Shown: positions 2,509-21,283, counted from the first letter of the stretch. The stretch: DNA of 64,000 nucleotides from Lapidilactobacillus wuchangensis (GCF_003946645.1 NZ_RHOU01000002.1:26488-90487); one strand, 5' to 3'. Numbers and translations are program-made. The notes: generated by a model from the sequence alone, not told the origin.

Positions 2509-2525
2509 GTGGGTTCCTCTTTTCT

Positions 2526-2849: not shown

Positions 2850-2891
2850 GTTGTAGCCTTCCTTTCGTATTCAAAAAGCCGGGTAGGTGGG

Positions 2892-3134: not shown

Positions 3135-3135
3135 A

Positions 3136-6100: not shown

Positions 6101-6945
6101 TTGAGCTTGGCACCCGGCAGCGCCTTGTTGGTATCGGCGTCAACTTTTTTGGCTTTCACGTTACCGTTGAGATTAACTTTAATAGGTAGAGAGAACTCGC
6201 CGTTGTTGGACAGCTTGAAGTTGACGAGCTTTTGTTGTGAGCCTTTCGTGTAGACGAAAGAGGTACCAACGTCAGCAGCCTTGGCAATCGCATAAGCCAC
6301 CTTACCGGATTCCTTCGACTGGGCAGTGGCCGTCAGCGTCAGCTTATTGCCAGACTTCGTAATCTTGAGGTTCGCGGTGTTCGCCGTTTGCTGGGCGAAA
6401 GCTGCGAGCCGTCCGTTGGTATCAGTTAAGGTGATTGAATCACCAACTGCAAGCGTGATCTGCTTACCGTTGAAAGATGGCTTGCGATCATGCGCGGCGA
6501 CCTTATCAAGGATTGCTTTCTTTTCAGACTGATAGCTCTTGTTCGGTGTGGTGAGCAACGAATCGCCGAGCGTTTCCCAAATAATCATCTGGGTCACGGC
6601 GTAGTTGCGGTTGGTGGGGTTCTGGTAGTAACCATAGTAAGCAATCTTGGCTAGTTGATCCTTCTTACTGTCGGAGTAAGTGCTGGGGTTGTAGCCGGAG
6701 CCGCTCATATCGAGATCGACCCCGTGCTCCACACAGAAGGCAACTTTGCCGTCCACCTTTTTCATCCACATACCTGCGTCCGTCCAATGTAAGCCATTGA
6801 ACAAATGCAAGTGCCATGTGTTGCGCCAGTCGGCGACCTTGGTGTTGGTCATGCTGGCAGCAATCGCCATTGAGGCGGGGATAAAGAGTTGGACGAAAAT
6901 TGCGATTAAAGCGGCGAATACGGAGGTCCGCCGAACTGCTTTCAT
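3136..6945 (-). CDS. LPXTG-anchored surface adhesin with tandem Cna-B/SpaA-type (isopeptide) domains, ~1270 aa
   Basis: Signal peptide MKAVRRTSVFAALIAIFVQLFIPASMAIA after a GGAGG RBS. Repeated domain signature (E/Y)xxxExKAPxGYV(L) occurs at least six times (YYWQEVKAPTGYVLD, YYALEEKAPAGYVLN, KYQLEEVQAPVGYVL, KYTATEVSAPNGF, TVAETKTPTGY, KISEVTAPNGYV). The C-terminus has LPQTGN, a hydrophobic stretch and KKKDGK. Antisense ORFs from the track (3070..3678, 4327..4734, 4765..5271 etc.) are spurious. Confidence 0.9.
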   Translation of the reverse strand: MKAVRRTSVFAALIAIFVQLFIPASMAIAASMTNTKVADWRNTWHLHLFNGLHWTDAGMWMKKVDGKVAFCVEHGVDLDMSGSGYNPSTYSDSKKDQLAKIAYYGYYQNPTNRNYAVTQMIIWETLGDSLLTTPNKSYQSEKKAILDKVAAHDRKPSFNGKQITLAVGDSITLTDTNGRLAAFAQQTANTANLKITKSGNKLTLTATAQSKESGKVAYAIAKAADVGTSFVYTKGSQQKLVNFKLSNNGEFSLPIKVNLNGNVKAKKVDADTNKALPGAKLKFEYNGTTKEITTGTDGYAVLNGIKAGTKIKISEVTAPNGYVNKGELKEVTIEPGKTVEVVLGNKEQLGNVTLAKIGKEFGSDMFNAYYSLNGAVYGIYTSTGTRVGAITTDGNGKGTLQNLKLGSYYALEEKAPAGYVLNTTKLPFELKYAGQTVAVTTAHVDATDQEQRGTATIIKEDAVTGKQPQGAASLNGAVYELHRAADDKLVKSVTITNNTASVSGLELDDYYWQEVKAPTGYVLDPQKYTFKLAYAGQNVTTATATTTVKEQVITGDLDLLKYGNYDWTTQGKGTKPVMLKDTQFTVTSKTTGKVVRTGLTDAQGYVKFADLPYDTYTVAETKTPTGYNGIKPFTVVVDGTQKSQHYSIENKVIEEKLRVVKVDTETGKTVLRAGAIFRIKNLQTNKYEVQPTADKSGTTDKFATDNSGELITAEALGYGKYQLEEVQAPVGYVLAKESAKFTIDGSHKDGIVVIKFADLSQKGVATLTKTGATPVAVEKVETEYGDQYKFKYDYTALTGAKFEFKAAEDITTADGTVRAHKGDVVATGTTDAQGQIQTPELYLGKYTATEVSAPNGFIMNTDPIAFELKYAGQEVTVTSTSLEAKNDFQQLDITLNKQEESITGWKDNLPVIKNVAANGQVFGLFTQGETTIGDTVIPSESLVATTTVKDGKAEFGTIQLPEGYYYVKELDAGEKHDLNTTMYGFHFHTTDNEKIKHIDLNDGKVIDNKLHENELSFKKINEVATLVSGKGYSYTMSGNAAGAVFELLDADKKVIQTITVGKDSTGSIKHLPVGTFYLRETKPSATNLVLSKETLKLVSTKDGVTVFDSKDKQIGETKADAKKPTIAFELTNHLIKGTGELTKTDVSTGKRLPNTGIRILDENGKTVVSGRTDKNGVFSFGNLPAGKYSFQEYDAPKGYEISEALVPFEITKDGEIVKAVMTDKQTPKPGLPQTGNATSGWLIVIGVVLLLGVLAAMVVIGGAKKKDGK

Positions 6946-7863
6946 CAATGTAATTCCTCCATTCTTATTTTTCAGTAGCAGCGTGTGAACTAAGTGCAAC
7001 AAAATTGAAGTTGAATCACGGTTCAGCAACGTAAGCCTGTTATTTTATTGGGAAAGTTAACGGGCGGCTATTCATCGGTGGATAAGTCATCGGCAAATAA
7101 ATAACGGGAAATAAAAATAGACCGCTCGGACATTGAGGGTCTACGCTTGCTGTTGATATGAAGTTTTCTCCAATTTGCACCGTGCAACTTTTATGCTGCT
7201 TCCAAAGCTGTTTTTTGTGATATAATTGAGCTTATCGAAATTCAAAAGCCTTTAACGGCGCTCATTTGCGCTCATTCGGCTTTTCGGGGCAACAGAATGG
7301 GAGTAATTGATATATACAAATTGATGTTACAACGTCGGTTTAACAGCATTTCGCTTATTGTATAATTGCGTAAAAGACGGTTAGTGATTATGATTGTCAC
7401 CAAAAAGCTCATCTATCATTGGATAGATGGGCTTTTTTGGATAGACAAGTAGCATTATTTAAAAGTAAAAATTATTGTCAGCGAGTCGCGCATTAAACAA
7501 TTAAGAGAGAAACCTATTTCAATAAACTATTTAGATAAACATTGGATCAAAGCAAATCAGATGTATAAAATTGGTCGAAAACCAATTCTAAATAAGTTAA
7601 TGGTCGTCAATAAAGTTGATTCATGAAAAATATTAAAATTAAAAGTTACTATGATACTTTTTTATCTTTTTCCATTGTATCTTTTGAAGTGAATGATGTG
7701 ATCAACGTTATTTTAGGTGAAGAAAGAGAATGTCTTTTCCCCAGATCTATTATAGTATTATCTTATAAATATTAGCTGTATGATATATTAGTAAAGTGTA
7801 TTATCCAACGTACTTTTTTGTGATGTATAGGTCTATTTAAATGTTTGAAGGAAAGTAGATGAA

Positions 7864-10233
7864 GTGTTGACATTAAAAAAATATGAGTTAGAAAAAGAAG
7901 AAATTATTGCGGCAGTAAATAATTTAGAAAAAAAAGAAATTAAGGTAGCTCCATTTGCTAAAAATTACCATTACTTAGATTCACTAGATGAAATGCAGAA
8001 AGTTGCGGCAACTAGACTTGAAGGGAATTATCTTGTAATAGCGGGTCCGGGTGCTGGAAAGACACATACCTTGGTATATCGTGTTTTTCACATGATCAAG
8101 ATGGGGATTCCCGCTAAAGAAATCTGTTTAATTACGTTCACAAGGAAAGCGGCAAATCAACTAAAAAGGCGTCTGGAAGAACTATTACCCAAGGTTGAGA
8201 TTGGGTATATTGGCACCATTCATGGTCTTGCTTTTTTGCTGATTAGGAGATCTTTAAGTCCGGGAGTGAGGTTGCTTGATCCTGAGGATGACAGAATGAT
8301 CATGCGATTAGCTATGGAGGAACATTCCCTTAAGTTACCGGAACGTACAAGATTAACGACTGTCCAAAAAATTATTGATTACTCCAGTGTCACGTTGAAG
8401 TCAATAGATGAAGCACTTATAGATTTGAATAAAGAAGATATTAATTCTGATGATATAAAGAGAATCATGAAGGTGTATGAAAAGTATAAGAAGCAGTATG
8501 GGTATATTAATTTTAACGATGCTATTCTGTTGGCATCAGGCGCAGATCGTGGTTCATTAAATTATTTAATGGTTGATGAGTATCAAGATACCGATCCTTT
8601 ACAAATTCAAATGATTAAAGGTTTGGCTTTTCCGAACGTAATGGCAGTTGGAGACGATTTCCAATCAATATACTCATTCAGAGGCGCAGATAATAAAATT
8701 ATTCTTAATTTTGATAATGATTTTGAAAATGCAAAGGTAATTAAATTAAATATTAATTATCGCTCAACACGTGAAATTGTGGATCTCGAAAATCAGATCA
8801 CTGGAGCAACGGAATATGGATATAGAAAAGCACTAAAAGCTAATCGCAAAACTGGTTCTTGTCCTGTGACTTTTCCAGAAAGCTCAGACACGGGAGTTTC
8901 AGAAGTCATGACGCGTGTTAGAAAACTAATTGAAGAAGAAAGTGATGATAAGCTAGCGGTAATTTATCGGTACAATCGGCGAAAAGTAGATTTTGAATCT
9001 AATCTTATTAAAAATAAGATTGATTATGTTGTTTATGGAGGAATAAAATTATTAGAACGAAAACACATTAAAGATATATGCGCAATATTGCTGACAAATC
9101 AGAATAAGAATGATTTTATAGCATATATGAGGGCTTTAATGCTTTTAGAGGGAATTGGAGAAGTTTCAGCAAAACAGCTAATTCAGGGGCTTAAGAAATC
9201 TTCGCGAACCGACTTTCTGGAACTAAAACAAATCATCAATACGCAATATCCAAGTACTTTAGATTTGTTGAAAGATACTGAAAAATTCTATTTAGATTTG
9301 GAATCCGTGCTAAGTAAGTCAAACTATACAGTTGAAGAAATACAGGCAGATTTTGAAATACTTAATGAATTATCAAAAGACTATCAAAGCATCAATAATT
9401 TTATAAGCGACATCATACTCGATTCATCACAGGATAAATGGTCATCAAAAAAAAGTAACGTTAATGTTGTATTAACGACCATACATTCAGCAAAGGGTCT
9501 TGAGTTTGATGATGTGTTTTTTATTTATGATCCAGAAATTGTTTATTCTGTTGATAAGGCTGAAGAGAATAGAAGGCTTTTTTACACTGCAATTTCGCGT
9601 GCTAAGACCAGATTAACAATAATTGATGGTGGACATCGCAAAGATATTTCTCAGATACTCTCTGATTTTGAGGTTCAAGATATGTATCTTGATCCAGAAC
9701 TACTGGAAGATGAGGCGGAAATTACTGATACTAATTACTTAAATGTAGACGATGTAGAAAACAGTTTTGCTAAAAATGATGTTCGGCAGACAGAAATGAT
9801 CCAAAAGAATTGGACTGAAATAATAAATAGTGTAGCAAATTCAGAGCATCGTATGTTGTTGACAAAGTTGCAGGTAGCTGCTTCTTCTGAAGATACATTA
9901 TTGTTGGTATACGATTTAGATGACGAAAAAATAATTACATCTAATTCGAAACAACTTACTGATGAATTACAATCGGCTATGACGGCCTTGACTGATCATC
10001 TTATGTCAATAATTTTAATTGAACAGAATTCTTTTCAAAATATTGAGAGATCACGTAATGAAAGCACAAAAAAATATGAAGTTCCTAAGAGTGATAACAT
10101 TGATATCAAAGTTTTAGATCGTACAGAGGAAGATAACCATCAAAGTGAATCCAATTCTCCCCTTGAATCGCATACCTCCTTTATTAAAGTTGCTTTAGGT
10201 CACTTGTTTGGAAAACATAAGAAGGAAAATTAG
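7864..10233 (+). CDS. UvrD/REP (superfamily 1) DNA helicase with ~150-aa acidic C-terminal extension
   Basis: Walker A VIAGPGAGKTHTLVYR, motif Ia LITFTRKAANQLKRR, motif II MVDEYQDTDPLQ, motif III VGDDFQSIYSFRGA, motif IV NYRSTREIV, motif VI TIHSAKGLEFDDVFFI. Probable GTG start at 7864 with an AGGAAAG RBS. Low-GC codon usage. Confidence 0.85.
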   Translation: MLTLKKYELEKEEIIAAVNNLEKKEIKVAPFAKNYHYLDSLDEMQKVAATRLEGNYLVIAGPGAGKTHTLVYRVFHMIKMGIPAKEICLITFTRKAANQLKRRLEELLPKVEIGYIGTIHGLAFLLIRRSLSPGVRLLDPEDDRMIMRLAMEEHSLKLPERTRLTTVQKIIDYSSVTLKSIDEALIDLNKEDINSDDIKRIMKVYEKYKKQYGYINFNDAILLASGADRGSLNYLMVDEYQDTDPLQIQMIKGLAFPNVMAVGDDFQSIYSFRGADNKIILNFDNDFENAKVIKLNINYRSTREIVDLENQITGATEYGYRKALKANRKTGSCPVTFPESSDTGVSEVMTRVRKLIEEESDDKLAVIYRYNRRKVDFESNLIKNKIDYVVYGGIKLLERKHIKDICAILLTNQNKNDFIAYMRALMLLEGIGEVSAKQLIQGLKKSSRTDFLELKQIINTQYPSTLDLLKDTEKFYLDLESVLSKSNYTVEEIQADFEILNELSKDYQSINNFISDIILDSSQDKWSSKKSNVNVVLTTIHSAKGLEFDDVFFIYDPEIVYSVDKAEENRRLFYTAISRAKTRLTIIDGGHRKDISQILSDFEVQDMYLDPELLEDEAEITDTNYLNVDDVENSFAKNDVRQTEMIQKNWTEIINSVANSEHRMLLTKLQVAASSEDTLLLVYDLDDEKIITSNSKQLTDELQSAMTALTDHLMSIILIEQNSFQNIERSRNESTKKYEVPKSDNIDIKVLDRTEEDNHQSESNSPLESHTSFIKVALGHLFGKHKKEN

Positions 10234-10405
10234 ATACTGATAATACACCTTTTCCATGAGTGCGTTTAATTATTTAGGTTTATTTTCAAATAATTCCGGG
10301 AATAGTTCTTGTTTATATTAACAACCTTTAAAAATTAGTTTCTAAGAATTATTTAAGTCACATTAAAAAAGTAGGACAATCATGCTTACGTGTAAAACGT
10401 GTAAT

Positions 10406-10424
10406 TTACTCTAGAACTATAAGC
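10406..10424. repeat. direct repeat copy 1 (tttActctagaactataAg) flanking Type III R-M cassette
   Basis: 17/19 identical to 16006-16024 (tttGctctagaactataGg). The two copies bracket the mod-res module plus the tnpA fossil. Confidence 0.6.
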
Positions 10425-10438
10425 CTCACGTACTAGCC

Positions 10439-10468
10439 AGTGTTTCAGTCACTGGTTTTGTGTGTCAA
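10439..10468 (+). terminator. hairpin + U-run (ccagtgtttcagtcactgg ttttgtgtg); may also be an IS200-type subterminal hairpin
   Basis: Perfect 6-bp stem followed by TTTTGTGTG, downstream of the helicase gene and adjacent to the tnpA fossil. A second perfect hairpin gacccttgaaagggtc lies at 10508-10523. Confidence 0.35.
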
Positions 10469-10522
10469 AGCCAAACCACTTAAGCGATGTTTGTACTATT
10501 CATCCTGACCCTTGAAAGGGTC

Positions 10523-10990
10523 CTAATACCCGCACATACTCAATTTATCCATCACTTGATTATGTTTTTTCCCTAATCTAGAATATATATTCTTATATTT
10601 CTTTATAGTTGCTTCATTTTTTTCGATTGTGCTCATATAATATCCCTCTGACCAGAAATGTCGATTTTTAAATTTGTATGTTGATTGAACATCATTAACA
10701 CTGATTTCCCGTTTAAATACTTTATAAAGCTTGATATACTTATTTTTGGTTGTAACTCACCAACCAATGTACATGGCTCGGTATCATATGACCTTTAATA
10801 ATTTTCATGTCTTTATACTGGCTGACACAACAATCTAACATCATCCTGTAGATCTCGTCGATATTGTTTATAGATTACTTTTTTCTCATACTTTGGAGTG
10901 AATACGATATGGAGCCATTTGGTATGTGCAGGACTATTGAGGTTATTTGCCGTTTATGACGTCCTCTTTCGATTTTGATGACCTACATTT
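10523..10990 (-). pseudogene. tnpA: IS200/IS605-family tnpA (Y1/HuH transposase) fossil, multiply frameshifted with in-frame stops
   Basis: Minus-strand conceptual translation contains ...MRKK*SINNIDEIYRMMLDCCVSQYKDMKIIKGHMIPSHVHWLVSY. The SHVHWL stretch is the HuH motif of IS200 TnpA (HVHLL consensus). A second frame carries ...KFKNRHFWSEGYYMSTIEKNEATIKKYKNIYSRLGKKHNQ, matching the conserved C-terminal (F/L)WSxGY(F/Y)xST(V/I)G ... I.KYI.NQ block. Several stops and frame changes interrupt it, and no ORF >=60 aa is called here. Confidence 0.6.
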
Positions 10991-11316
10991 TAAATCTTAT
11001 AGGTGCATCTTTGGTATAGTCCTGCATAGTGAGTGGCTTTTTGTTTCACACTCATTCGTACATTCAACTTGGCCTAAGGCCATAACAAAACGTTTTGCTA
11101 CGGAAAAATGATTTTAGTAACATTGATGAATTTAAAGAGGAATACTGAGAATAAATTTTTGGTGAGATGTGGAAGATAATATCTATGACTTTTCAATTAA
11201 TGAAGATGTAAAGATTGAAGAAGTAAGTAGTCTTTATGTTATTAATACTTTTATCATTACAATATATTGGTGGAATGAAAAATTCAATGTTTTTAAAAAG
11301 ATGAAGGAGCAAAATT

Positions 11317-13275
11317 ATGTCTAAAATCGAGCCTAAATTATTCGACGAATTAAAAAAAGCACTTATCTCATTTGGGGACAAGTACTTCATTGGCGATGAA
11401 TTAAATCGTTCAAAAGTTTCTGATGATTTACGTGCTTATGATGAAGCTTTACTAGCAAAATTATTTGAAATTGATTTTATCAAAAAGAATTACATTAAAG
11501 AGGTTGCGGGACAAAAACTATTTCAAATTGATCAACTTGAAGAAGCGATTCTTTACGATGATTATTGGGACACAAGTTATACGAAATATGAAAACCGTGT
11601 TGGCTTAACTAGTAATGGCAAGTTTATTGAAGATAACCAGGATGTTGTTTTAGATTTTCCCTTTAAAGATGGTGTCCTAACGGCAAGCATGACCAAAGAA
11701 GATAATGAAAACGGCTATGACGATGCATTCTTAAATGAAGTTATCGAGAAAGATGAAATTGACCGCTTATTTGATAAGAAGATATTAAATAATGTGAAAA
11801 GATATGATGTTGACGGGGAAAAAGATACTGATTATTTTGATACAGAAAAAGACAATTTAATTATTAAAGGAAATAATCTGTTAGCGTTACATTCACTCAA
11901 TGAAATGTATTCGGGTAAGGTTAGATTTATTTATCTTGACCCACCTTATTATTTTGACAAGAGTAAGCCTAGCGATGCTTTTTCATATAATTCAAATTTT
12001 AAATTATCGTCTTGGCTAGTATTTATGAAGAATCGTTTAGAAGTTGCACGTGATTTACTTGATAGTGATGGTGTTATTTTTGTTTCTATTAGTGAAGATG
12101 GGCAAGCCTATTTAAAAATATTGATGGATGATGTATTCGGGAAAAATAATTTTGTCGAAACGTTTATTTGGCGAAATACTGATAATGCTGATTCTCTGGG
12201 GAATAAGAGCCGTTCCGGTTTGGAGTATATCCATGCATATGAAAAAGTTAAGAATTCAAATAGAAAATGGATTGGAAAAGATACAGAGAATGGTGATGCA
12301 CCCTTATTAAACTCTAGTAATGGTGTTAGTCAACTGGAATTTGAACCGGGAATTATACGGTTTAATATACCAGATGGAATTTATAAGGCAGGTAGTTATC
12401 CTAAAATTGAGCTTCTTGATGATTTGATTGTTGAAGATGGTAAAAATAAAAATATTATCAAACTCAAAGGAAAGTTCAAATGGAGTCAATCCTACCTAGA
12501 TGAAGAAGTACGAAAAGGTGGAGATTTTATAATTAAATCGAAGCAGTTCTCTATTCGTTATCAGAAATCTGAAAGCAATTCTATGGCACCTGAGAAAATG
12601 GTTGATACCACCTATCTTTCTAAAATGTTTGGTGTTGGTAGCTATGAAGATTCAAATTCACATTTAGAAAATTTACAAGTAAATTTCACGTACTCCAAAC
12701 CAGAATCTTTAATTGCTTTTCTTATGAGAGCAACTACTGAAGAAGATGATCTCGTCCTAGATTTCTTCATGGGATCTGCCACAACACAAGCTGTTGCAAT
12801 GAAGATGCACCGTCGATTTATTGGTATTGAACAAATGGATTATATTAATACTGTTTCAGTTCCTCGTTTACAAAAAGTCATTGCTGGCGAACAAGGGGGT
12901 ATATCTAAAGATGTTAATTGGCAAGGTGGTGGCTCATTCGTCTATGCTGAATTGATGCAAAAGAATATGGGGTATTTACAAGATATTATCGCCTCTACAA
13001 CAATTGATGAATTACATGAAATCTATAACCGTATGTTATCCGGTGTAGATGGCTCACAAGAATCAGCGGATATTTCTTTTAAAGCAGATTTAGATAAAAT
13101 TGAATGGGATGCAACTAAGGTTAAATTTGATGATCAAAAACGTCTGTTGATTAAGTTACTTGATAAAAATGGGTTGTACTATAATTACTCTGAAATTGAT
13201 GATCAGAATGTTCGAGAATTTTTGTCAGATAGTGATTATCAGTTCAATAAAGATTTCTATGGGACTGGTGAGTAA
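11317..13275 (+). CDS. mod: Type III restriction-modification Mod subunit (beta-class N6-adenine DNA methyltransferase)
   Basis: Motif IV IYLDPPYYFD precedes motif I DFFMGSATTQAVAMKMHRRFIGIE (beta-class order). 652 aa. Translationally coupled to the downstream res gene (stop 13275, ATG 13278). Confidence 0.85.
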   Translation: MSKIEPKLFDELKKALISFGDKYFIGDELNRSKVSDDLRAYDEALLAKLFEIDFIKKNYIKEVAGQKLFQIDQLEEAILYDDYWDTSYTKYENRVGLTSNGKFIEDNQDVVLDFPFKDGVLTASMTKEDNENGYDDAFLNEVIEKDEIDRLFDKKILNNVKRYDVDGEKDTDYFDTEKDNLIIKGNNLLALHSLNEMYSGKVRFIYLDPPYYFDKSKPSDAFSYNSNFKLSSWLVFMKNRLEVARDLLDSDGVIFVSISEDGQAYLKILMDDVFGKNNFVETFIWRNTDNADSLGNKSRSGLEYIHAYEKVKNSNRKWIGKDTENGDAPLLNSSNGVSQLEFEPGIIRFNIPDGIYKAGSYPKIELLDDLIVEDGKNKNIIKLKGKFKWSQSYLDEEVRKGGDFIIKSKQFSIRYQKSESNSMAPEKMVDTTYLSKMFGVGSYEDSNSHLENLQVNFTYSKPESLIAFLMRATTEEDDLVLDFFMGSATTQAVAMKMHRRFIGIEQMDYINTVSVPRLQKVIAGEQGGISKDVNWQGGGSFVYAELMQKNMGYLQDIIASTTIDELHEIYNRMLSGVDGSQESADISFKADLDKIEWDATKVKFDDQKRLLIKLLDKNGLYYNYSEIDDQNVREFLSDSDYQFNKDFYGTGE

Positions 13276-13277
13276 TT

Positions 13278-15986: not shown

Positions 15987-16005
15987 CTACCCGTAAAATG
16001 AGTAG

Positions 16006-16024
16006 TTTGCTCTAGAACTATAGG
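16006..16024. repeat. direct repeat copy 2 (tttGctctagaactataGg)
   Basis: See 10406-10424. Lies 20 nt after the res stop codon. Confidence 0.6.
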
Positions 16025-16417
16025 ACCTATGTACAAGTCAGCGTCTATAATCACCTCCAAGCTCTTGGTAGAATTATCCTATCATCAGTTTGGAGGTTTT
16101 ACATATGAGAGAAATTATTAAATTGAACCTTGATAATCTTAGAAAATCAACTCGTTTAGATAACACAGTCTGCTTCCTGCGAACAGAACATTGAACGATT
16201 AAAATTTTTAATGGGATTAAGCCACACCTATTTGAATCACTACTGAAGGTGGTTTCGGGTCATGGCGAGTAAATTGCTCGATGTTGAAGCGGTTTATTTG
16301 ATTTGTGGTCGACAACTAGGCAAGTAATGTTTTATTCCTAGTAGCTAGTTATGATGAACGCGGTAGCTTTTATAATATGAGGCGTGATGCTTGAATTAAT
16401 TCAAAGAGCGAACGTAG

Positions 16418-16446
16418 GTTCTCTTTTGGTCTATATATGGTATAAT
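16418..16446 (+). promoter_or_regulatory. candidate sigma-A promoter with extended -10 (TGgTATAAT) for the cyclase operon
   Basis: tggtataat at 16438-16446, ~38 nt upstream of the ATG at 16484. The -35 element is weak (ttctct). Confidence 0.35.
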
Positions 16447-16483
16447 GGCTTTATTAAAATACTATATATAGGCAGGCGTGTGT

Positions 16484-17584
16484 ATGAAAGATACATCTTA
16501 TGTTTTACAGAAAATCTGTAGCCAAATTTCACTATCTGATACGGCGAAAGCTAATGTTGTTCGGGAATATACCTCACTTGGAAAGTTAATTTCCAACAGT
16601 GATTTAATCGGCTGTAGAACTGAAATAAAACCTCAAGGATCATATAATCTTGGAACAGCTATAATGCCCTTAAATGGTTCCGATGATGATTTTGATATTG
16701 ACTTGGTAGCTATTTTGGATGAGATGCCAACTGCTCAGAAAACTAAAATTGTTATCGGTGATGTATTAAAAGCAAGTGATTTGTATTCATCCAAACTATT
16801 GCCTGAGAAAAAACGTGCTTGGACAATTGACTATGCCAAGTCACACGTGGATGTTGTTCCGGCAGTTAAAAATGATGTGGCAGATATCTCGGTGACAAAT
16901 AAAAATAGCAAAGATAATTATGATTATCATCCAAGTAGTCCATTTAAATTCAAGGAATGGTTTATTGAAAAGGGACAAGATATTTATCAAGGGTCTACTA
17001 CTGTCAAAAACCATATTCGTAATGAAGTGGAACAGCCTGAGGAATATGATCAATCTACAATTTTACAACAGGTTGTGCAGTTGTTGAAATTTCATCGAAA
17101 TAAGATGTTTGAGAATCGACCTGATAAGGAAAAGCCAATCTCAATGGTAATTACCATTTTAGCAGCTCAGTCCTATAACGGTCAGAACGATCTTTCAACT
17201 GCTTTGGTAGAAGTAACTAATAGATTACGCGATCAAATTGAATATGATGTACAAGGAGTTCCACACATCCTCAATCCGACAAATCCGAAAGAAGATTTTA
17301 CTGATAAATGGAAAGAGCATCCCGAACGGAAGACAGCTTTTTTTGAATGGCTTCAAGTTGTTGAACGAGAATTGGGAACCACAAACAAGACAAATATTAT
17401 TTCATGGCAAGAGACACTTTCAAAAGTCTATGGTGAGAAACGCACACGAAACGCGTTTAATGATTTAGGCAAATGGCGATCAGATATTCAAAGACGCGGA
17501 GAAATACCTGTTAATGATGCTGGAATATTTGAAGATGAACATAGTGACAATTATGTGACACCAAATACCTTTTGGGGGGATTAA
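16484..17584 (+). CDS. SMODS-type / cGAS-DncV-like nucleotidyltransferase (CD-NTase), CBASS-type cyclase
   Basis: N-terminal pol-beta NTase signature QGSYNLGTAI ... GSDDDFDIDLV (G[SG]x9-13DxD) plus a third acidic block SHVDVVPAV. ~367 aa, typical CD-NTase length. The ATG at 16484 is preferred over the tracked GTG at 16478. Confidence 0.75.
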   Translation: MKDTSYVLQKICSQISLSDTAKANVVREYTSLGKLISNSDLIGCRTEIKPQGSYNLGTAIMPLNGSDDDFDIDLVAILDEMPTAQKTKIVIGDVLKASDLYSSKLLPEKKRAWTIDYAKSHVDVVPAVKNDVADISVTNKNSKDNYDYHPSSPFKFKEWFIEKGQDIYQGSTTVKNHIRNEVEQPEEYDQSTILQQVVQLLKFHRNKMFENRPDKEKPISMVITILAAQSYNGQNDLSTALVEVTNRLRDQIEYDVQGVPHILNPTNPKEDFTDKWKEHPERKTAFFEWLQVVERELGTTNKTNIISWQETLSKVYGEKRTRNAFNDLGKWRSDIQRRGEIPVNDAGIFEDEHSDNYVTPNTFWGD

Positions 17585-17585
17585 A

Positions 17586-18005
17586 TTGTCTAATGTTTGT
17601 AGACTTAAGTATTATTATCAATTAAATTTGTTATTTCCTAATCCCCATAATTCAATAACTGCAAATGGCTATTTTCATGTTTATGGAAATATACAGGCTA
17701 ATTCACTCGGAAAAAAGTACAAGATTGAATTTCGATCTTGTAAAAAAAATATTCAGGTTATCATTCACAACTTTTTTATTCCGGGGTCGTTATATGATAT
17801 ACCGCATATCTTTGTAAATCAATCTAGTAAAGAAAAAAAAGAAATTTTCTTGTGTTTATATAGAAACAAGCATAATCGAAAAGAATTTATCTTCGGTGAT
17901 AATTTAAAAGAGACATTAATTCCTTGGACAAAAGAATGGTTGTATTTTTATGAATTATTTTTAGTTACTGGAAAATGGTATGGGAACGGTGAACATCCTG
18001 AGTAA
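17586..18005 (+). CDS. hypothetical 139-aa basic/aromatic-rich protein, middle gene of cyclase operon (TTG start, no internal Met)
   Basis: Starts 2 nt after the cyclase stop with a GGGGGGA SD 6 nt upstream of TTG. A 139-codon open frame in ~30% GC DNA is unlikely by chance. Overlaps the next gene by 26 nt. No TM segment and no recognisable motif. Confidence 0.45.
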   Translation: MSNVCRLKYYYQLNLLFPNPHNSITANGYFHVYGNIQANSLGKKYKIEFRSCKKNIQVIIHNFFIPGSLYDIPHIFVNQSSKEKKEIFLCLYRNKHNRKEFIFGDNLKETLIPWTKEWLYFYELFLVTGKWYGNGEHPE

Positions 18006-18867
18006 AAAAATAAGAGTGGTTCATGAAAAAAGGTTTATATGTAAAAATATTCTTCTACCTATAATTTTACCTCTTGTCCTATGTGAGGTTATTACAAATT
18101 ATTTTCCAAGAAAAAAGGTTTTATCTGTCATGCAAGCGATATTTAACATTAGTGAAAGCAGAAGATTGCTGCTCGAGAGTTTCATGTTTGTGTACCCTAT
18201 TTTTATTTTTTGCATTTTTTTCTTCTTATATCGCAAATTTATTTCAAAAATTTTCTGGAAGCGAAATCTTTTACCTGAGAATCAATATTTTTTGGTGTCA
18301 GTGTGGTCATTAAAGATTGCGACTTTTATTAGTGGGTTAGATCAGGGAAGTGCCACTAGTCTTCCAATATGGCAATATATTGATTACCTGTATAATAAAG
18401 AATCATTTGGTTGGAGATACTTAACACTAAAGACTCCTGATGTAACACAATCTCCCAAAGGGACAGAAATTAAACAAGTTTTCTACCAAAAAAATGATGA
18501 TAAAAATATGAGTCCAGTTCGATCAATAATAGTGGCAGACACATACCCAATTGACATGGACTTGCTACCTGAATTTGTTACTAATCATGACTACGTTCTT
18601 TTTCAACGCCTGGTTAATAATCAAACGGATAGAGTGCGTGGTTACAATCAAGATTTGGTGTTGGATATTATTAGACAAATTAGAAAAGCTGAAACAGATG
18701 GCGTTCAGGATATTTATTTACTTTTAAATACTAGTCCTACTCACGTGACGGAAATTATGCGAGAATCTTTTCAGGATGCTGGACGGAACTCCATAAAGCA
18801 TCTGTATGTGTATGAGTCGCAATCAGAATCTCCATTTAGATTTGTCAAACCACATCGTATTTATTAA
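17980..18867 (+). CDS. 2-TM membrane protein with soluble C-terminal domain, putative CBASS membrane effector (SLATT / S-2TM-like)
   Basis: Two N-terminal hydrophobic helices (ILLPIILPLVLCEVITNYF; FMFVYPIFIFCIFFFLY) then a ~180-aa alpha/beta-looking domain (SIIVADTYPIDMDLL ... DIYLLLNTS). Overlapping gene arrangement with the cyclase operon. Confidence 0.55.
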   Translation: MGTVNILSKKIRVVHEKRFICKNILLPIILPLVLCEVITNYFPRKKVLSVMQAIFNISESRRLLLESFMFVYPIFIFCIFFFLYRKFISKIFWKRNLLPENQYFLVSVWSLKIATFISGLDQGSATSLPIWQYIDYLYNKESFGWRYLTLKTPDVTQSPKGTEIKQVFYQKNDDKNMSPVRSIIVADTYPIDMDLLPEFVTNHDYVLFQRLVNNQTDRVRGYNQDLVLDIIRQIRKAETDGVQDIYLLLNTSPTHVTEIMRESFQDAGRNSIKHLYVYESQSESPFRFVKPHRIY

Positions 18868-19563
18868 GATGATTTTCAATTATAAAATATATGTAATTAA
18901 GATATCGTGATCGTTGTAATAGTGTTGGTTACCGTTATTTTGTAACTTAACAAAATAACGTTCGCATTTCAGTGATAACGCAGTAGTACGCTACTATAAC
19001 TGGAAATTAATCAAAGTTATTGAACTTCAAGTAATTATAATGTTATCGAAAATGTATTCTGACTTGTGATCTTATACGCTTTTTCGGAATAAATATGTTA
19101 TAATAAACTTACTTAGTATGAGAGTTGAACAGCACAACTCGTTTATGATATCAAAGTTACCATAAGAAATACTAAACGAGGCTATAACACATCCTTTCTA
19201 AGATGTCTACCTCTAATTGCTTAATCACCTTGACCACAATAGTAATTATGATCTCAGTGATATTAGCGCTGAAGGAAAAGTCACTCGATTGCACCACTAG
19301 GATTATCACAATCACTAGTATGTAACGAATACGCTTATCCATTCTATTATAACTTTACGTAAAGTATGCGATTATACTTTACCGGTCAGCAGAGTATTTT
19401 ATCGGGCTATGGTAATTTACAAGAATTTCCGGAGCGCCAGCTGTAATTTGGTAGCATTTAGACGTCACTTTGTATGATTCTGACCGTCAGTTTGAATAAG
19501 TGAACGATTTCCGGAGGGTCTGCGGGTTACCGCAGGCCCTTTTAGTATCTTTAGGAGGATTTT
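18868..19563 (+). ncRNA. ORF-free structured leader upstream of RT, candidate RT-associated ncRNA/template
   Basis: 696 bp with no ORF >=60 aa in any frame. Perfect 11-bp hairpin ccgttattttgt-aactta-acaaaataacg (18935-18962). 10-nt direct repeats atttccggag at 19425-19434 and 19507-19516. GC-rich hairpin gggtctgcgg-gtta-ccgcaggccc (19517-19540) followed by cttttag and the RBS AGGAGG. Confidence 0.3.
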
Positions 19564-21117
19564 ATGAACGGCGAAGTTGATCGATTACTTGAAAAATCTA
19601 ATAAAGTACTTGGTAAAACATACAAACATTTTGATGTTAATCCAAGTAAGTCTTCTGCTAAGAAGTTTATTGCCAATACAGTACTTAAACCTAACGTTAT
19701 TGCACGTTATCGATTCTACCCGTTTATTATCTATTCACAGGTGACAATAAAATATCATCGGACTAAGGGACATCTCAGAGCACATGTACGTGATAAAGTA
19801 CGCCCTTTATCTTTAGTTGCCCATCATGACGCATTGATTTATGTAAAATATGCGGATGAATTAAATTCGTCATATGAAGAATATCTGGTTGAGCATAATT
19901 TTTCCAATGTACCAACGGCGTATAGAAAATCCAGGCATACTTCTAATATTAATGCAGCGAAAGAAGTATTTGATTTTATTGTTGCCCAGAATGATTGCTG
20001 GATCATAAAGGGTGATTTTAAAGGCTTCTTTGATAATCTAAGACACCGAATTTTAAAAGAAAATCTACGCCGAGTTATGTCTGTAGCCCACTTAACGCCA
20101 GATTGGTTGGCTGTTTTTAAGTCAGTGACAAGGTATAACTGGGTTATGAGCGCAGAACTAAATAAGTCATTGAAAAAAGCAAATCTGGTTGATAGAAAAT
20201 GGCCTGCCTATCTAAAAGAGCGCAAAGACTTCGCCAAATTGATAGCGGATGGTAATTTAAATGTTAACGGATTTAATCAAATAGGCATTCCACAAGGAAC
20301 ACCTATTAGCGCTGCACTTGCAAATGTTTATATGATTGAATTTGATGAGAAACTTAATAAAATTGCTCTTGAAAAGGGAGGATTGTACCGTCGATATTCA
20401 GATGATTTTGTTATTGTTATTCCGAAGAAAAATTTAGATGAGGAAGACCTGAATATATTTTTGAAGGGAGTTATAGATCTTAGCCAGCTTTTTACTTCTT
20501 TAGAGATTGAGCGGCATAAAACTAAAATATTTAGTTTTGGTAACTCTGATGGTACTAATGTAATTTTACAAGAAGATAAAAGCAAGAACTTTATTCCTGC
20601 TTGGTTAGATTATTTAGGCTTTATCTTTAATGGTTCTGAAGTTAAAATGCGAGAACGCGGCGTATATAAGTTCCATTATAAAAGCAAAAAGGCAATTAAT
20701 AAGTTTTTAAGAATTAGGAATGATAGAAATCAAATTCTATCAAGGAAGGTTCCAACGCCAGATAGAAAACAACGTCTGGTATGGCAAAACGGAAAGCAAA
20801 AACGAATCGAACTAAACCAATATGATAAACGGCTTGCTTATAAAAAAAGGATTGAAAGGGAAGAGAAAAGAATTAAAGCTAATGCGCCTAATTCAAAGAT
20901 GGTTGCAAAGATGTACACTGTTGGCAAAAGATATGGCGAACGATACTCGATGATTGGATATGCCAAAAGAGCGCAGACAATATTTTCCAACAATAAAGGA
21001 CGATACAAAGTTAGTGTTCTGAATCAAATTAATGATCAGATTAAGAATAATCAGTTTCAAATTAATAGAATTAGAGACAAAGGTGCATATGCCGCACATA
21101 AAAGAGTTAATGAATAG
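19564..21117 (+). CDS. reverse transcriptase, Abi/UG (defence-associated) or retron-like; 517 aa with ~140-aa N-terminal and ~170-aa basic C-terminal extensions
   Basis: RT motifs IKGDFKGFFDNLRHRIL (motifs 1/2), GIPQGTPISAALANVYM (motif 4), YRRYSDDFVIV (motif 5, YxDD), LEIERHKTKIF (motif 6), LGFIFNG (motif 7). No maturase (X) domain recognised. Confidence 0.8.
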   Translation: MNGEVDRLLEKSNKVLGKTYKHFDVNPSKSSAKKFIANTVLKPNVIARYRFYPFIIYSQVTIKYHRTKGHLRAHVRDKVRPLSLVAHHDALIYVKYADELNSSYEEYLVEHNFSNVPTAYRKSRHTSNINAAKEVFDFIVAQNDCWIIKGDFKGFFDNLRHRILKENLRRVMSVAHLTPDWLAVFKSVTRYNWVMSAELNKSLKKANLVDRKWPAYLKERKDFAKLIADGNLNVNGFNQIGIPQGTPISAALANVYMIEFDEKLNKIALEKGGLYRRYSDDFVIVIPKKNLDEEDLNIFLKGVIDLSQLFTSLEIERHKTKIFSFGNSDGTNVILQEDKSKNFIPAWLDYLGFIFNGSEVKMRERGVYKFHYKSKKAINKFLRIRNDRNQILSRKVPTPDRKQRLVWQNGKQKRIELNQYDKRLAYKKRIEREEKRIKANAPNSKMVAKMYTVGKRYGERYSMIGYAKRAQTIFSNNKGRYKVSVLNQINDQIKNNQFQINRIRDKGAYAAHKRVNE

Positions 21118-21164
21118 CTTCATATAATTAACTTTCACATATATCTGAATTAAAGCACTTTACT

Positions 21165-21212
21165 TTATGACAAAGGCCATACAATCTTTAAAGATTGTAT
21201 GGCCTTTGTTTG
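21165..21212. terminator. bidirectional rho-independent terminator
   Basis: Perfect inverted repeat aaaggccatacaatcttt/aaagattgtatggccttt, followed by gtttgagcatttttt. Confidence 0.75.
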
Positions 21213-21283
21213 AGCATTTTTTGATACGAGAATTAATTTATCTGACTTATATTTAGTCTTTAATTAATCTGAACGTATTCAAT

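What the first reader, a model, noticed from the sequence alone, without database searches (positions are those of the whole stretch)
7030..21280. AT-rich ~14-kb immunity island with four unrelated defence modules wedged between an ICE-like conjugation module and core chromosome
GC content drops from ~46-48% to ~30% exactly between the LPXTG-operon promoter region (~7030) and a perfect bidirectional terminator at 21165-21212. Inside lie a stand-alone UvrD-type helicase, a Type III R-M pair, a CD-NTase operon and an Abi/UG-type RT with a long structured leader. An IS200-family fossil and a flanking direct repeat are also present. This is the signature of a defence island or integration hotspot built by serial insertions.
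Basis: partly seen in the sequence, partly recalled or inferred. Interest (0 to 1): 0.7.

Follow-up and report, generated by a model that had tools for sequence, protein, structure and literature searches.

The report
Defence-gene island beside a conjugative element
A 14-kb AT-rich stretch of a Lapidilactobacillus chromosome is a horizontally acquired cluster of three intact, already known anti-phage systems (a Type III restriction-modification pair, a short CBASS operon and a DRT2 reverse transcriptase whose leader RNA looks built to make a repeat "Neo" gene) plus an orphan helicase and insertion-sequence relics; it is an ordinary defence island with one instructive member.

Summary
GC is 50.8% in 1-7029, 33.3% in 7030-21280 and 42.2% beyond 25.1 kb. 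GC3 is 0.24-0.29 in all seven island genes, against 0.63 on the left and 0.34-0.54 on the right.

The island holds:
- an orphan UvrD/GajB-like helicase with no GajA;
- an IS200 fossil;
- an intact Type III Mod/Res pair;
- a solo IS200 end;
- a CBASS type II-short operon (cyclase, E2, 2TM effector);
- a DRT2 reverse transcriptase with a roughly 435-nt structured leader.

The leader carries a 165-nt template bounded by two TATAAC motifs. Once concatenated, the template's antisense strand is stop-free (a 55-aa unit) and gains a TAGACA-17-TATAAT promoter across the junction. Five relatives (RT 47-57% identical) show the same logic, with units of 162-168 nt that are all multiples of three.

The left flank is a Tn916-family module. 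The right flank is chromosomal, but its nearest genes are patchy accessory genes.

Not confirmed: an island-flanking direct repeat, bidirectional terminator function, and any empty site (no close genome was available).

Verdict: an ordinary mosaic defence island, a new member of known kinds. "Four defence modules" and "hotspot built by serial insertions" are only partly supported.

The parts
1..7029 (-). Tn916-family conjugative-element module (left flank, GC 50.8%). It holds an FtsK/SpoIIIE-like fragment running off the window (about 17-800), tandem small acidic paralogues (960-2062), two YdcP/DUF961 genes (2137-2508, 2526-2849) and an LPXTG (LPQTG) thioester/SpaA adhesin (3136-6945, or 7029 by ORF).
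   Evidence: Pfam DUF961, TED and SpaA x9. blastn gives 67% identity to FtsK plus YdcP x2 of Tn916-like elements on enterococcal plasmids. ORFs. GC and GC3.
7403..7439 (.). A-tract, hairpin, T-tract (bidirectional-terminator shape) marking the point where GC falls to island level.
   Evidence: Fold energy -23.7 kcal/mol, z = -6.3. Fine GC profile. Terminator scan hit on the minus strand at 7429-7410.
7864..10233 (+). Orphan UvrD/PcrA-type SF1 helicase, 789 aa (the identical NCBI cluster representative is 788 aa), with a non-catalytic C-terminal tail. No partner gene.
   Evidence: Pfam UvrD-helicase, UvrD_C and UvrD_C_2. PADLOC RTasHel 4e-54 and GajB 1e-53. Far below all NCBIfam equivalog cut-offs. 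Relatives are sporadic. Neighbours of the closest relative have no counterpart here.
10376..11097 (-). IS200/IS605-family fossil. The tnpA remnant, with frameshifts and stops, lies at about 10565-10945. The terminal 66 nt (10378-10443) is direct-repeat copy 1.
   Evidence: Three-frame translation. About 67.5% nt identity over 10375-11097 to intact IS200 elements on Lactiplantibacillus plasmids. End alignment.
11317..13275 (+). Type III R-M methyltransferase (Mod), with DPPY and FMGS motifs present.
   Evidence: PADLOC MTase_III 9e-167. Pfam N6_N4_Mtase and TypeIII_RM_meth. The mod-res pair alone is 69-70% nt identical to pairs on plasmids of Exiguobacterium, Lactococcus and Carnobacterium.
13278..15986 (+). 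Type III R-M restriction subunit (Res), with Walker A, DEAH and a C-terminal PD...ExK motif present. Its last codons and its stop lie inside the solo IS200 end.
   Evidence: PADLOC REase_III 2e-181 covering residues 32-894. Pfam ResIII. Motifs read from the translation.
15979..16047 (+). Solo IS200 terminal fragment (direct-repeat copy 2), in the same orientation as the fossil's end.
   Evidence: the repeat finder D1, 74% over 66 nt. nhmmer finds only these two copies. Aligns to the terminus of an intact L. plantarum IS200.
16478..17584 (+). CBASS CD-NTase (cyclic-oligonucleotide synthase). GS...DxD motif present. The likely true start is the ATG at 16484.
   Evidence: PADLOC Cyclase PDLC00780 2e-94. 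Pfam SMODS and DncV-like NTFase.
17586..18005 (+). E2-only Cap2-like protein (the CBASS type II-short accessory).
   Evidence: PADLOC E2 models, 5e-27 to 2e-10.
17980..18867 (+). CBASS 2TM membrane effector.
   Evidence: PADLOC Effector 2TM 2e-88. Pfam SUa-2TM 2e-22.
19096..19546 (+). DRT2 non-coding RNA locus. Conserved TGnTATAAT promoter element at 19096-19104. The inferred RNA runs about 19111-19546. 5' hairpin at 19122-19140. 3' scaffold at 19354-19546, ending in hairpin 19513-19542.
   Evidence: Alignments of three and six leaders. 46-pair consensus structure: 91.9% of cells paired against 31-51% in slid controls, 25 compensatory pairs against 4-6, 0 of 500 shuffles as high. Single-sequence fold z = -3.7. 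No Rfam family.
19183..19353 (+). Template region. Jump-site motif TATAAC at 19183-19188 and again at 19348-19353. The inferred repeat unit is 19189-19353, 165 nt.
   Evidence: The motif pair sits at the two invariant alignment sites. It covaries: ATAAC/ATAAC here, GTAAC/GTAAC in two relatives. The distance is 165 nt.
19175..19354 (-). Neo-like proto-ORF, antisense to the ncRNA. The 55-aa unit is YNRMDKRIRYILVIVIILVVQSSDFSFSANITEIIITIVVKVIKQLEVDILERMC. The genomic stop (19172-19174) lies 15 nt outside the template. The -35 TAGACA (19209-19204) and -10 TATAAT (19351-19346) become adjacent, with a 17-nt spacer and a TG extension, only across a repeat junction.
   Evidence: Longest open stretch in the leader. 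Stop-free concatemer in exactly one antisense frame. Only 2.7% of shuffles have any open frame. Junction promoter scores 11 of 12. Same VD/-35 and YN/-10 coding layout as KpnDRT2-type Neo in Tang et al., Supplementary Table.
19564..21117 (+). Drt2-class (UG2) reverse transcriptase, 517 aa, YSDD active site, conserved C-terminal extension.
   Evidence: PADLOC Drt2 PDLC03757 1e-115. NCBIfam Drt2 4e-93, but 312.8 bits is below the 390 cut-off. Invariant Y278-S279-D280-D281 in a 20-sequence alignment.
21170..21209 (.). Perfect 20+20 nt palindrome (terminator-like hairpin) at the right edge of the island.
   Evidence: the repeat finder I8. Fold energy -30.2 kcal/mol, z = -8.5. The T-run lies only on the + side.
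21284..21763 (-). First right-flank gene: a 159-aa membrane protein of no known family, GC 39.8%, patchily distributed.
   Evidence: No PADLOC, Pfam or NCBIfam hit. Only 28 homologues, in scattered genera. Different neighbours in the closest relative.

Best explanation
The segment of about 7440-21283 is a horizontally acquired, mosaic anti-phage defence island in Lapidilactobacillus wuchangensis. It sits at the junction between a Tn916-family conjugative element and the chromosome. It carries three apparently intact, independent and already known systems, all on the + strand, each followed by its own hairpin.

1. A Type III R-M pair. Mod methylates host DNA, and the Mod-Res complex cuts unmodified incoming DNA.

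2. A CBASS type II-short operon. On infection the CD-NTase makes a cyclic nucleotide signal, the E2-only Cap2-like protein primes or regulates the cyclase, and the signal activates a two-transmembrane effector that damages the membrane (abortive infection).

3. A DRT2 system. A roughly 435-nt structured RNA is transcribed ahead of the RT gene. The RT copies the 165-nt template (19189-19353) round and round. It jumps from the 5' TATAAC to the 3' TATAAC, making tandem-repeat cDNA. Once double-stranded, each junction reconstitutes a TAGACA-17-TATAAT promoter, and the antisense strand reads as an endless 55-aa hydrophobic repeat (Neo) that arrests the cell.

A fourth gene, a UvrD-like helicase, has no recognisable partner and no assignable role. 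An IS200 fossil and a second solo IS200 end bracket the R-M pair and record at least two past insertion events.

Shown here: composition, gene identities, motif integrity, RNA structure covariation, and the template, ORF and promoter logic in six loci.

Inferred: every biochemical activity, the order of acquisition, and whether the vehicle was the conjugative element.
For: Composition: GC 0.33 and GC3 0.24-0.29 in the island, against 0.51/0.63 on the left and 0.42/0.34-0.54 on the right.

System calls: PADLOC MTase_III 9e-167, REase_III 2e-181, Cyclase 2e-94, E2 5e-27, 2TM 2e-88, Drt2 1e-115, with Pfam agreeing. Ten further ORFs (nine right of the island, one in the left flank) give no significant PADLOC hit apart from one marginal match (8.5e-06).

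DRT2/Neo:
- The leader is conserved in five relatives whose RTs are 47-57% identical.
- 3' scaffold: 46 pairs, 25 compensatory, 0 of 500 shuffles as high.
- The distance between the two aligned jump sites is 165, 168, 165, 165, 162 and 162 nt, all multiples of 3. Each locus has exactly one stop-free antisense frame.
- Shuffled units have an open frame in only 2.7-11.5% of trials.
- The jump motif covaries.
- A junction-spanning, TG-extended promoter is found in 4 of 6 loci, including the window.
- The layout 'EVD..L..CYN' is the same as KpnDRT2 Neo 'EVDKLLETLYN', and the mechanism is as published.

Mosaicism: the RT relatives are solitary in other genera, on a plasmid or beside an integrase/Rep element. 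The R-M pair alone occurs on small Firmicute plasmids. The helicase's closest relative lies in a different defence island.

IS200 ends. Tn916-like flank.
Against: - No empty site or strain comparison was possible, so acquisition by insertion is inferred from composition and patchy distribution only.
- No att-like repeat flanks the island.
- All modules have nearly the same GC3, so composition does not separate successive insertions.
- The RT scores below NCBIfam's Drt2 equivalog cut-off (312.8 against 390).
- The jump motif differs from the published ACA motif, and no Rfam family matches.
- No well-spaced Shine-Dalgarno and start codon is evident for the Neo frame.
- In 2 of 6 relatives the junction promoter is weak.
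- An alternative 3' site (GTAAC at 19322) would give a 138-nt unit that is also open.
- The helicase may have nothing to do with defence.
Confidence: 0.8

Rival explanations
1. The island is not a chromosomal hotspot. It is accessory cargo at the extremity of the Tn916-family conjugative element, so it arrived and moves together with that element. The true element-chromosome junction would then be at about 21.2 kb, not 7.1-7.4 kb.
For: The island directly abuts the element's adhesin/YdcP/FtsK module. No att-like repeat or integrase separates them. A DRT2 relative lies next to an integrase/Rep_trans/DUF960 element, and another lies on a plasmid among IS elements. A strong palindrome marks the 21.2-kb edge.
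Against: GC3 jumps from 0.63 to 0.27 at the boundary, so the two parts have different histories. A bidirectional-terminator-shaped hairpin insulates them at 7403-7439. From general knowledge of Tn916, the element ends shortly upstream of the orf24/orf23 side. The element's other end and its integrase lie outside the window, so this could not be tested.
Confidence: 0.3
2. The helicase is a fourth, stand-alone defence gene, a Gabija-like or novel helicase system. In that case the reader's 'four modules' is right.
For: PADLOC GajB and RT-associated-helicase models hit at about 1e-54. The family is sporadic and rare. Some relatives are fused to a Uma2 nuclease domain. The closest relative also sits among defence genes such as GmrSD and an Eco57I-like methylase. 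Here it sits in a defence island.
Against: No GajA or OLD-family partner, and no nuclease domain in this copy. The neighbours of the closest relative have no counterpart here, even as pseudogenes. The hits may reflect generic UvrD similarity: PcrA, UvrD and Rep models hit at 1e-63 to 1e-74. Only one relative's context could be read.
Confidence: 0.3
3. The low-GC block is old native DNA, for example a slowly evolving AT-rich region, and was not acquired.
For: All seven genes share one orientation and nearly one composition. No flanking repeats or integrase were found.
Against: GC3 is 0.24-0.29 against 0.34-0.54 for the chromosomal genes. The RT and helicase clusters each stand for a single contig in a 5.8-billion-protein collection, and the next relatives are no more than 57-63% identical and in other genera. 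IS200 relics lie inside. The modules occur separately on plasmids elsewhere.
Confidence: 0.03

Closest known systems
DRT2 (UG2) of Klebsiella pneumoniae and its Neo gene (Tang et al. 2024, PMC11100668; Wilkinson et al. 2024, PMC12039810)
   Same: Single RT gene preceded on the same strand by a structured ncRNA ending in a long hairpin. The template is bounded by a short repeated motif. The unit length is a multiple of three. The ORF is stop-free and antisense to the ncRNA. The -35 and -10 boxes are brought together only across the repeat junction, and they are read in frame as V-D and Y-N. The repeat is hydrophobic.
   Different: The RT is 517 aa with a C-terminal extension and scores below NCBIfam's Drt2 cut-off. 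The ncRNA is about 435 nt against 281 nt. The unit is 165 nt (55 aa) against 120 nt (40 aa). The jump motif is (A/G)TAAC rather than ACA. No added nucleotide is needed to keep the frame. The junction lies immediately before the -10 box rather than just after the -35 box. Nothing has been tested experimentally. Tang et al.'s table already lists a Lactobacillus intestinalis DRT2 with a 52-aa Neo, so the host family is not new.
CBASS type II-short with 2TM effector (classification recalled from Millman et al. 2020; PADLOC cbass models)
   Same: Three-gene order CD-NTase, E2-only protein, 2TM effector. All three match the dedicated PADLOC models.
   Different: None seen at sequence level. The nucleotide signal and the cyclase clade were not determined.
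Type III restriction-modification systems (EcoP15I type)
   Same: Mod with the N6-adenine DPPY motif and the Type III-specific N-terminal domain, followed by Res with a ResIII helicase core and a C-terminal PD-ExK motif. The two genes abut.
   Different: The 3' end of res runs into a solo IS200 end. About 12 C-terminal model positions are unmatched. The recognition sequence is unknown.
Gabija (GajA + GajB)
   Same: The helicase matches many GajB profiles (best 1e-53).
   Different: No GajA (OLD-family ATPase/TOPRIM nuclease) in the island, so this is not a Gabija system.
Defence islands associated with integrative conjugative elements and other mobile elements (general concept, own knowledge)
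   Same: Several unrelated defence systems packed into a few kb, atypical composition, IS debris, adjacency to a conjugative element.
   Different: No integrase, att repeat or empty-site variant could be shown here.

Membership tests
DRT2 / Neo-producing reverse transcriptase system | RT belongs to the UG2/Drt2 family and has an intact YxDD active site | tested here: met
   PADLOC Drt2 1e-115. NCBIfam Drt2 is the best family at 4e-93, but 312.8 bits is below the 390 equivalog cut-off. YSDD is invariant in a 20-sequence alignment.
DRT2 / Neo-producing reverse transcriptase system | Conserved structured ncRNA immediately upstream on the same strand | tested here: met
   Six-locus alignment. 46 pairs, 91.9% paired, 25 compensatory, 0 of 500 shuffles as high, slid controls 31-51%. 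No Rfam model exists or matches.
DRT2 / Neo-producing reverse transcriptase system | Template bounded by a short repeated motif that allows template jumping (ACA-1/ACA-2 in KpnDRT2) | tested here: inconclusive
   A repeated motif exists at both aligned edges and covaries between loci (TATAAC, GTAAC, ATAC, AACAC). It is not the published ACA motif, and jumping itself cannot be shown in silico.
DRT2 / Neo-producing reverse transcriptase system | Unit length a multiple of three, with a stop-free ORF antisense to the ncRNA across junctions | tested here: met
   165, 168, 165, 165, 162 and 162 nt, with one open antisense frame in each of six loci. Shuffles give an open frame in 2.7-11.5% of trials.
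DRT2 / Neo-producing reverse transcriptase system | Promoter reconstituted across the repeat junction | tested here: met
   Window: TAGACA-17-TATAAT with a TG extension, 11 of 12. Three relatives score 10-12 of 12 and two are weak. Function was not tested.
DRT2 / Neo-producing reverse transcriptase system | Tandem-repeat cDNA and a toxic Neo protein produced on phage infection | not testable with these tools
   Needs cDNA sequencing and phage assays.
CBASS type II-short | CD-NTase with catalytic GS...DxD | tested here: met
   PADLOC Cyclase 2e-94, Pfam SMODS. GSYNLG...DIDL read in the translation.
CBASS type II-short | E2-only Cap2-like accessory, with no E1 or JAB partner | tested here: met
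   The 139-aa protein hits eight PADLOC E2 models. No other ORF lies in the operon.
CBASS type II-short | Signal-activated effector encoded in the operon | tested here: met
   PADLOC 2TM effector 2e-88, Pfam SUa-2TM. Activation was not testable.
Type III restriction-modification | Mod (N6-adenine methylase with a Type III domain) plus Res (SF2 helicase with PD-ExK nuclease), adjacent | tested here: met
   PADLOC 9e-167 and 2e-181. Pfam TypeIII_RM_meth, N6_N4_Mtase and ResIII. Motifs read.
Gabija | GajA (OLD-family ATPase/TOPRIM nuclease) encoded next to the GajB helicase | tested here: not met
   No ORF of 51 aa or more in 7030-7863, and none of 55 aa or more in 10234-11316. No remnants of a relative's neighbours.
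Defence island | Several unrelated defence systems clustered, with atypical composition and mobile-element debris | tested here: met
   Three systems in 10 kb. GC3 contrast. IS200 fossil plus a solo end. Ten further ORFs (nine right of the island, one in the left flank) give no significant PADLOC hit apart from one marginal match.
Integration hotspot | The same site is occupied by different cargo, or is empty, in related genomes | not testable with these tools
   The source genome is absent from the searchable collections. The nearest homologues of the flank genes lie in other genera with no synteny.
Tn916-family conjugative element (left flank) | FtsK-like coupling protein preceded by two YdcP/DUF961 genes | tested here: met
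   DUF961; 67% nt identity to FtsK plus YdcP x2 of Tn916-like elements. The relaxase, VirB4 and integrase lie outside the window and were not seen.

The most novel reading that the evidence does not exclude
The orphan UvrD-like helicase (7864-10233) represents an uncatalogued stand-alone anti-phage gene family. The family is rare and sporadically distributed across Bacilli, Clostridia and Mycoplasmatales. It is found in defence-gene neighbourhoods in both genomes whose context could be read. In some relatives it is fused to a Uma2 restriction-type nuclease.
Probability: 0.2. Interest if true: 0.5.

Novelty: new member of a known kind. Interest (0 to 1): 0.35.

Why it matters
As an island it adds little. 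Defence islands beside mobile elements, Type III R-M and CBASS type II-short are all well described.

Its value is as a worked example. A DRT2 system from a divergent, Lactobacillaceae-wide clade can be decoded from sequence alone. The template edges, the 165-nt unit, the hidden 55-aa Neo reading frame and the split promoter all follow the published logic, but with a different jump motif, unit size and junction position.

That gives a concrete, testable prediction for a Gram-positive host: the exact junction sequence and the exact codons to mutate. It also gives a recipe for annotating Neo where the published pipelines reported difficulty. The recipe is to align the leaders, take the micro-homology at the two conserved template edges, and check unit length modulo 3 together with the antisense frame.

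For lactic acid bacteria used in fermentation, a stack of R-M, CBASS and DRT2 is also of practical interest for phage resistance.

Tried and rejected
1. Empty-site search. Exact-protein look-ups of the ATPase, the membrane protein and the RT found nothing; the source genome is not in that collection. The one genome-contig scan, with the ATPase, gave at best 81% aa identity in Lactiplantibacillus and no flanking synteny. The membrane protein's closest relative has different neighbours.

2. Island-flanking direct repeat or att site. Nothing above chance. The 17-nt family D4 spanning both edges is 76% identical; I attributed it to ribosome-binding-site regions of the minus-strand genes by eye, without a test.

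3. Gabija. Rejected for lack of GajA.

4. Functional link between the helicase and DRT2, suggested by PADLOC 'RTasHel'. Rejected as unlikely, because none of five DRT2 relatives has a helicase nearby.

5. The 66-nt repeat as an integron-like cassette site. Rejected; it is the terminus of IS200.

6. Rfam at gathering and permissive thresholds. No family for the leader.

7. Extending the leader to RT relatives of 30-38% identity from metagenomes and viral contigs. nhmmer found only the six close loci.

8. Helicase relatives in viral contigs and on plasmids. None close.

9. Near-identical DNA on plasmids. Only a 250-nt stretch of the methylase gene matched.

10. No tRNA in the window to serve as an integration target.

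Full report
**Source and context.** Three proteins of the window are 100% identical to proteins of Lapidilactobacillus wuchangensis, each recorded on one 376,455-bp contig: the RT, the helicase (the cluster representative is one residue shorter than the ORF as called) and the 159-aa membrane protein. That genome itself is not in the searchable contig collections. Exact look-ups failed, and this limits all comparative tests.

**Observation.** The composition shift is real. GC is 0.508 in 1-7029, 0.334 in 7030-21280, 0.458 in 21284-25105 and 0.422 in 25106-64000. Third-position GC separates three compartments more sharply:

| Compartment | GC3 |
|---|---|
| Left-flank genes | 0.63-0.65 |
| All seven island genes | 0.24-0.29 |
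| Right-flank genes | 0.34-0.54 |

A fine profile shows that 7030-7439 is intermediate (39% GC). Island-level values of 24-27% begin right after a hairpin at 7403-7439 that has the shape of a bidirectional terminator: A-tract, stem, T-tract, -23.7 kcal/mol, z = -6.3. On the right, the perfect 20+20 palindrome at 21170-21209 exists (-30.2 kcal/mol, z = -8.5). The first gene of chromosomal composition starts at 21284. Only the + strand has a T-run near the palindrome, so bidirectional terminator function is not evident.

**Gene content.** All island genes are on the + strand.

- *Helicase, 7864-10233.* It has the UvrD/PcrA domains. It hits PADLOC RT-associated-helicase and GajB profiles at about 1e-54. 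It lies far below every NCBIfam equivalog cut-off.
- *Type III R-M, 11317-13275 and 13278-15986.* These are Mod and Res (PADLOC 9e-167 and 2e-181; Pfam TypeIII_RM_meth, N6_N4_Mtase, ResIII). The DPPY, Walker A, DEAH and PD...ExK motifs can all be read in the translations.
- *CBASS, 16478-18867.* This encodes a CD-NTase (2e-94), an E2-only protein (5e-27) and a 2TM effector (2e-88). That is the CBASS type II-short architecture.
- *RT, 19564-21117.* This is a Drt2-class RT (PADLOC 1e-115). NCBIfam Drt2 is the best family, but 312.8 bits is below the 390 cut-off. The YSDD motif is invariant.

Ten further ORFs (nine to the right of the island, one in the left flank) gave no significant PADLOC hit apart from one marginal match at 8.5e-06. 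The rest of the right side encodes oxidoreductases, transporters, PepN, an ABC system and a PTS system. Defence genes are therefore concentrated in this block.

**Helicase.** There is no ORF of 51 aa or more in the 830 nt upstream, and none of 55 aa or more between the helicase and mod. Hence there is no GajA, and this is not a Gabija system. Relatives are rare and scattered (Macrococcus, Mycoplasmatales, Clostridia, unnamed assemblies), and some carry a Uma2 nuclease domain. The closest relative whose context could be read (54% identity, L156) also lies among defence genes (GmrSD, an Eco57I-like methylase, a T5orf172/ResIII protein). Its immediate neighbours leave no trace in the window. No close relatives occur in viral contigs or on plasmids. 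A C-terminal module of about 100 aa is shared with four relatives but resembles nothing informative. I treat the helicase as an orphan of unknown role. 'Four defence modules' is therefore three systems plus one candidate.

**IS200 relics and the direct repeat.** Translation of the minus strand at 10565-10945 gives an IS200 Y1-transposase broken by frameshifts and stops. Homology to intact IS200/IS605 elements on Lactiplantibacillus plasmids runs from 10375-10378 to 11091-11097. The only statistically meaningful direct repeat in the region is 66 nt at 74% identity, at 10378-10443 and 15979-16044. nhmmer finds just these two copies. Both align with the terminus of the intact element. The first copy is the end of the fossil. 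The second is a solo end whose first bases supply the stop codon of res. The R-M pair is thus bracketed by two IS200 ends in the same orientation. That is evidence for at least two IS events. It is also a possible substrate for recombination, although IS200 elements are not known to form composite transposons (own knowledge). No repeat above chance links the two edges of the island: the longest exact match is 10 nt and the shuffle mean is 10.4. The 'flanking direct repeat' is therefore not confirmed as such.

**DRT2 leader.** RT relatives of 47-57% identity were found in Lactiplantibacillus nangangensis, Latilactobacillus sakei, Lactiplantibacillus plantarum (on a plasmid), Lacticaseibacillus suibinensis and a Secundilactobacillus. 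All have about 510-570 nt of non-coding DNA upstream, and this DNA aligns with the window's leader. The following parts are conserved:

- a TGnTATAAT element (window 19096-19104);
- a 5' hairpin (19122-19140);
- an invariant TAACAC site (19185-19190);
- a second conserved site at the other end of a poorly conserved middle stretch (19345-19359);
- a highly conserved 3' scaffold ending in the hairpin 19513-19542, just before the RT ribosome-binding site.

The scaffold's consensus structure has 46 pairs, with 91.9% of cells paired against 31-51% when partners are slid. Twenty-five pairs show compensatory changes, against 4-6 in the slid controls, and 0 of 500 shuffles reach the observed values. 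No Rfam family matches.

**Neo logic.** In published DRT2 the RT copies a template bounded by a repeated ACA motif. It jumps back to make tandem cDNA. Once double-stranded, this cDNA gains a promoter across the junction and encodes a stop-less ORF antisense to the ncRNA (Tang et al., PMC11100668; Wilkinson et al., PMC12039810). I chose the two conserved edge sites from the alignment, not from ORFs, and then took the micro-homology between them. The results were as follows.

- The motifs were TATAAC (window), GTAAC, GTAAC, ATAC, TTGT and AACAC in the six loci. The motif changes in step at both sites.
- The distances were 165, 168, 165, 165, 162 and 162 nt, every one a multiple of three.
- Each concatenated unit has exactly one stop-free antisense frame.
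- Shuffled units have any open frame in only 2.7% (window) to 11.5% of trials.
- Codon-position differences follow a coding pattern: 440 at position 3, 394 at position 1 and 328 at position 2.

In the window the unit is 19189-19353, and the repeat reads YNRMDKRIRYILVIVIILVVQSSDFSFSANITEIIITIVVKVIKQLEVDILERMC. The genomic stop at 19172-19174 lies 15 nt beyond the template, so the jump would bypass it. This is also the longest open stretch in the leader on either strand.

In antisense orientation the -35 box TAGACA (19209-19204) lies at the end of a unit, and the -10 box TATAAT (19351-19346) lies two bases into the next. A 17-nt spacer and a TG extension therefore arise only at a junction (11 of 12 matches). 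Three relatives have TTGACA or TTGATA, a 17-nt spacer and TACAAT or TATAAT at the same place. Two are weak.

The boxes are read in frame as V-D and Y-N, giving 'EVDILERMCYN'. KpnDRT2-type Neo in Tang et al.'s supplementary table reads 'EVDKLLETLYN', with the same spacing. The units are hydrophobic (GRAVY 0.3-0.96), and Wilkinson et al. report the same for Neo.

Open points:
- there is no well-spaced Shine-Dalgarno and ATG (the in-frame ATGs are those of 'RMCYNRMDK');
- an alternative 3' site at 19322 would give a 138-nt unit that is also open;
- the exact junction cannot be placed within the 6-nt homology.

Tang et al. state that Neo annotation was harder in divergent clades. Their table nevertheless lists a Lactobacillus intestinalis system with a 52-aa Neo, so this is a new member rather than a new kind.

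**Flanks.** The left 7 kb carries two YdcP/DUF961 genes, an LPQTG-anchored thioester/SpaA adhesin and, at the window edge, an FtsK-like fragment. DNA identity to the FtsK plus YdcP x2 block of Tn916-like elements is about 67%. The relaxase, the VirB4 homologue and the integrase were not seen, because they lie beyond the window. The conjugation genes are transcribed away from the island, so the island lies on the orf24-side end of the element.

To the right, the 159-aa membrane protein has only 28 homologues, in scattered genera, and different neighbours in its closest relative. The P-type ATPase has GC 48.6% and GC3 0.54. Its best matches are in Lactiplantibacillus (81% aa), with no DNA synteny beyond the gene. 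Pediococcus keeps an aldo-keto reductase next to its ATPase gene. 'Core chromosome' is thus not established for the immediate flank.

**Mosaic origin.** Each module has its own relatives.
- The mod-res pair alone is 69-70% nt identical to pairs on plasmids of Exiguobacterium, Lactococcus formosensis and Carnobacterium. The homology starts at the mod start codon and ends about 35-75 nt before the res stop.
- The DRT2 module occurs singly among housekeeping genes, on a plasmid between IS elements, or beside an integrase/Rep_trans element.
- The CBASS operon has almost no plasmid relatives.
- The helicase family sits elsewhere again.

This supports assembly from independent pieces. The near-identical GC3 of all the modules means composition cannot order the events, and no empty site could be examined.

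**Verdict.** The interpretation as a defence island next to a conjugative element is right. 'Four modules', 'core chromosome' and 'hotspot built by serial insertions' remain partly or wholly unproven. Everything identified belongs to known kinds. The most instructive element is the DRT2 leader, whose hidden 165-nt Neo template can be read directly from the sequence.

Noticed in passing
window 7403-7439: A-tract, 11-bp stem and T-tract, the classic shape of a bidirectional intrinsic terminator (-23.7 kcal/mol). It sits exactly where GC falls to island level. The 370 nt to its left (7030-7402, 39% GC) contain TG-extended -10-like boxes on the + strand (about 7217-7225) and no ORF. A small RNA or the end of the conjugative element could lie here.
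   Followed up: partly
window 960-2062, minus strand: Tandem ORFs of 87-100 aa, acidic, lie downstream of the YdcP genes. Three of them share a C-terminal '...FSF...Y(L/M/I)GV' motif. They have no Pfam family and look like paralogous small proteins of the conjugative element.
   Followed up: no
window 16106-16320: Upstream of the CBASS cyclase there is a 29-codon ORF with a good ribosome-binding site (MREIIKLNLDNLRKSTRLDNTVCFLRTEH). Out-of-frame pieces follow, such as 'GLSHTYLNHY'. They look like a decayed XRE-type helix-turn-helix regulator. This was judged by eye only.
   Followed up: no
window 22310-25105: The P-type cation ATPase has GC 48.6% and GC3 0.54, above the local chromosomal level. 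Its best matches are in Lactiplantibacillus (81% aa), with no Lapidilactobacillus match among species representatives. It may itself be acquired.
   Followed up: partly
window 27172-27978, minus strand: The iron-containing alcohol dehydrogenase ORF is only 268 aa, and its only Pfam match spans residues 14-181. It appears truncated and is possibly a pseudogene. It lies next to a MerR regulator.
   Followed up: no
L061 5627-5800 (Lactiplantibacillus nangangensis DRT2 leader): In this relative the concatenated 168-nt unit is stop-free in one sense frame as well as in the antisense Neo frame. None of the other five loci shows this.
   Followed up: no
L152 1-4300 and L149 (whole locus): DRT2 relatives sit next to a tyrosine integrase plus Rep_trans plus DUF3173 small mobile element (L. 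suibinensis), and on a 41.6-kb L. plantarum plasmid between a resolvase and IS21/IS30-type elements. This shows that the module travels on several vehicles.
   Followed up: partly
L156 10300-17381: The closest helicase relative is followed by a 303-aa protein of no family, a 1084-aa T5orf172/ResIII protein, an Eco57I-like methylase and GmrSD. This is a separate, uncharacterised defence neighbourhood.
   Followed up: no
window 15910-15986: Homology of res to plasmid-borne relatives stops about 35-75 nt before its stop codon, and the stop lies inside the solo IS200 end. The IS insertion probably replaced the last few codons of Res.
   Followed up: partly
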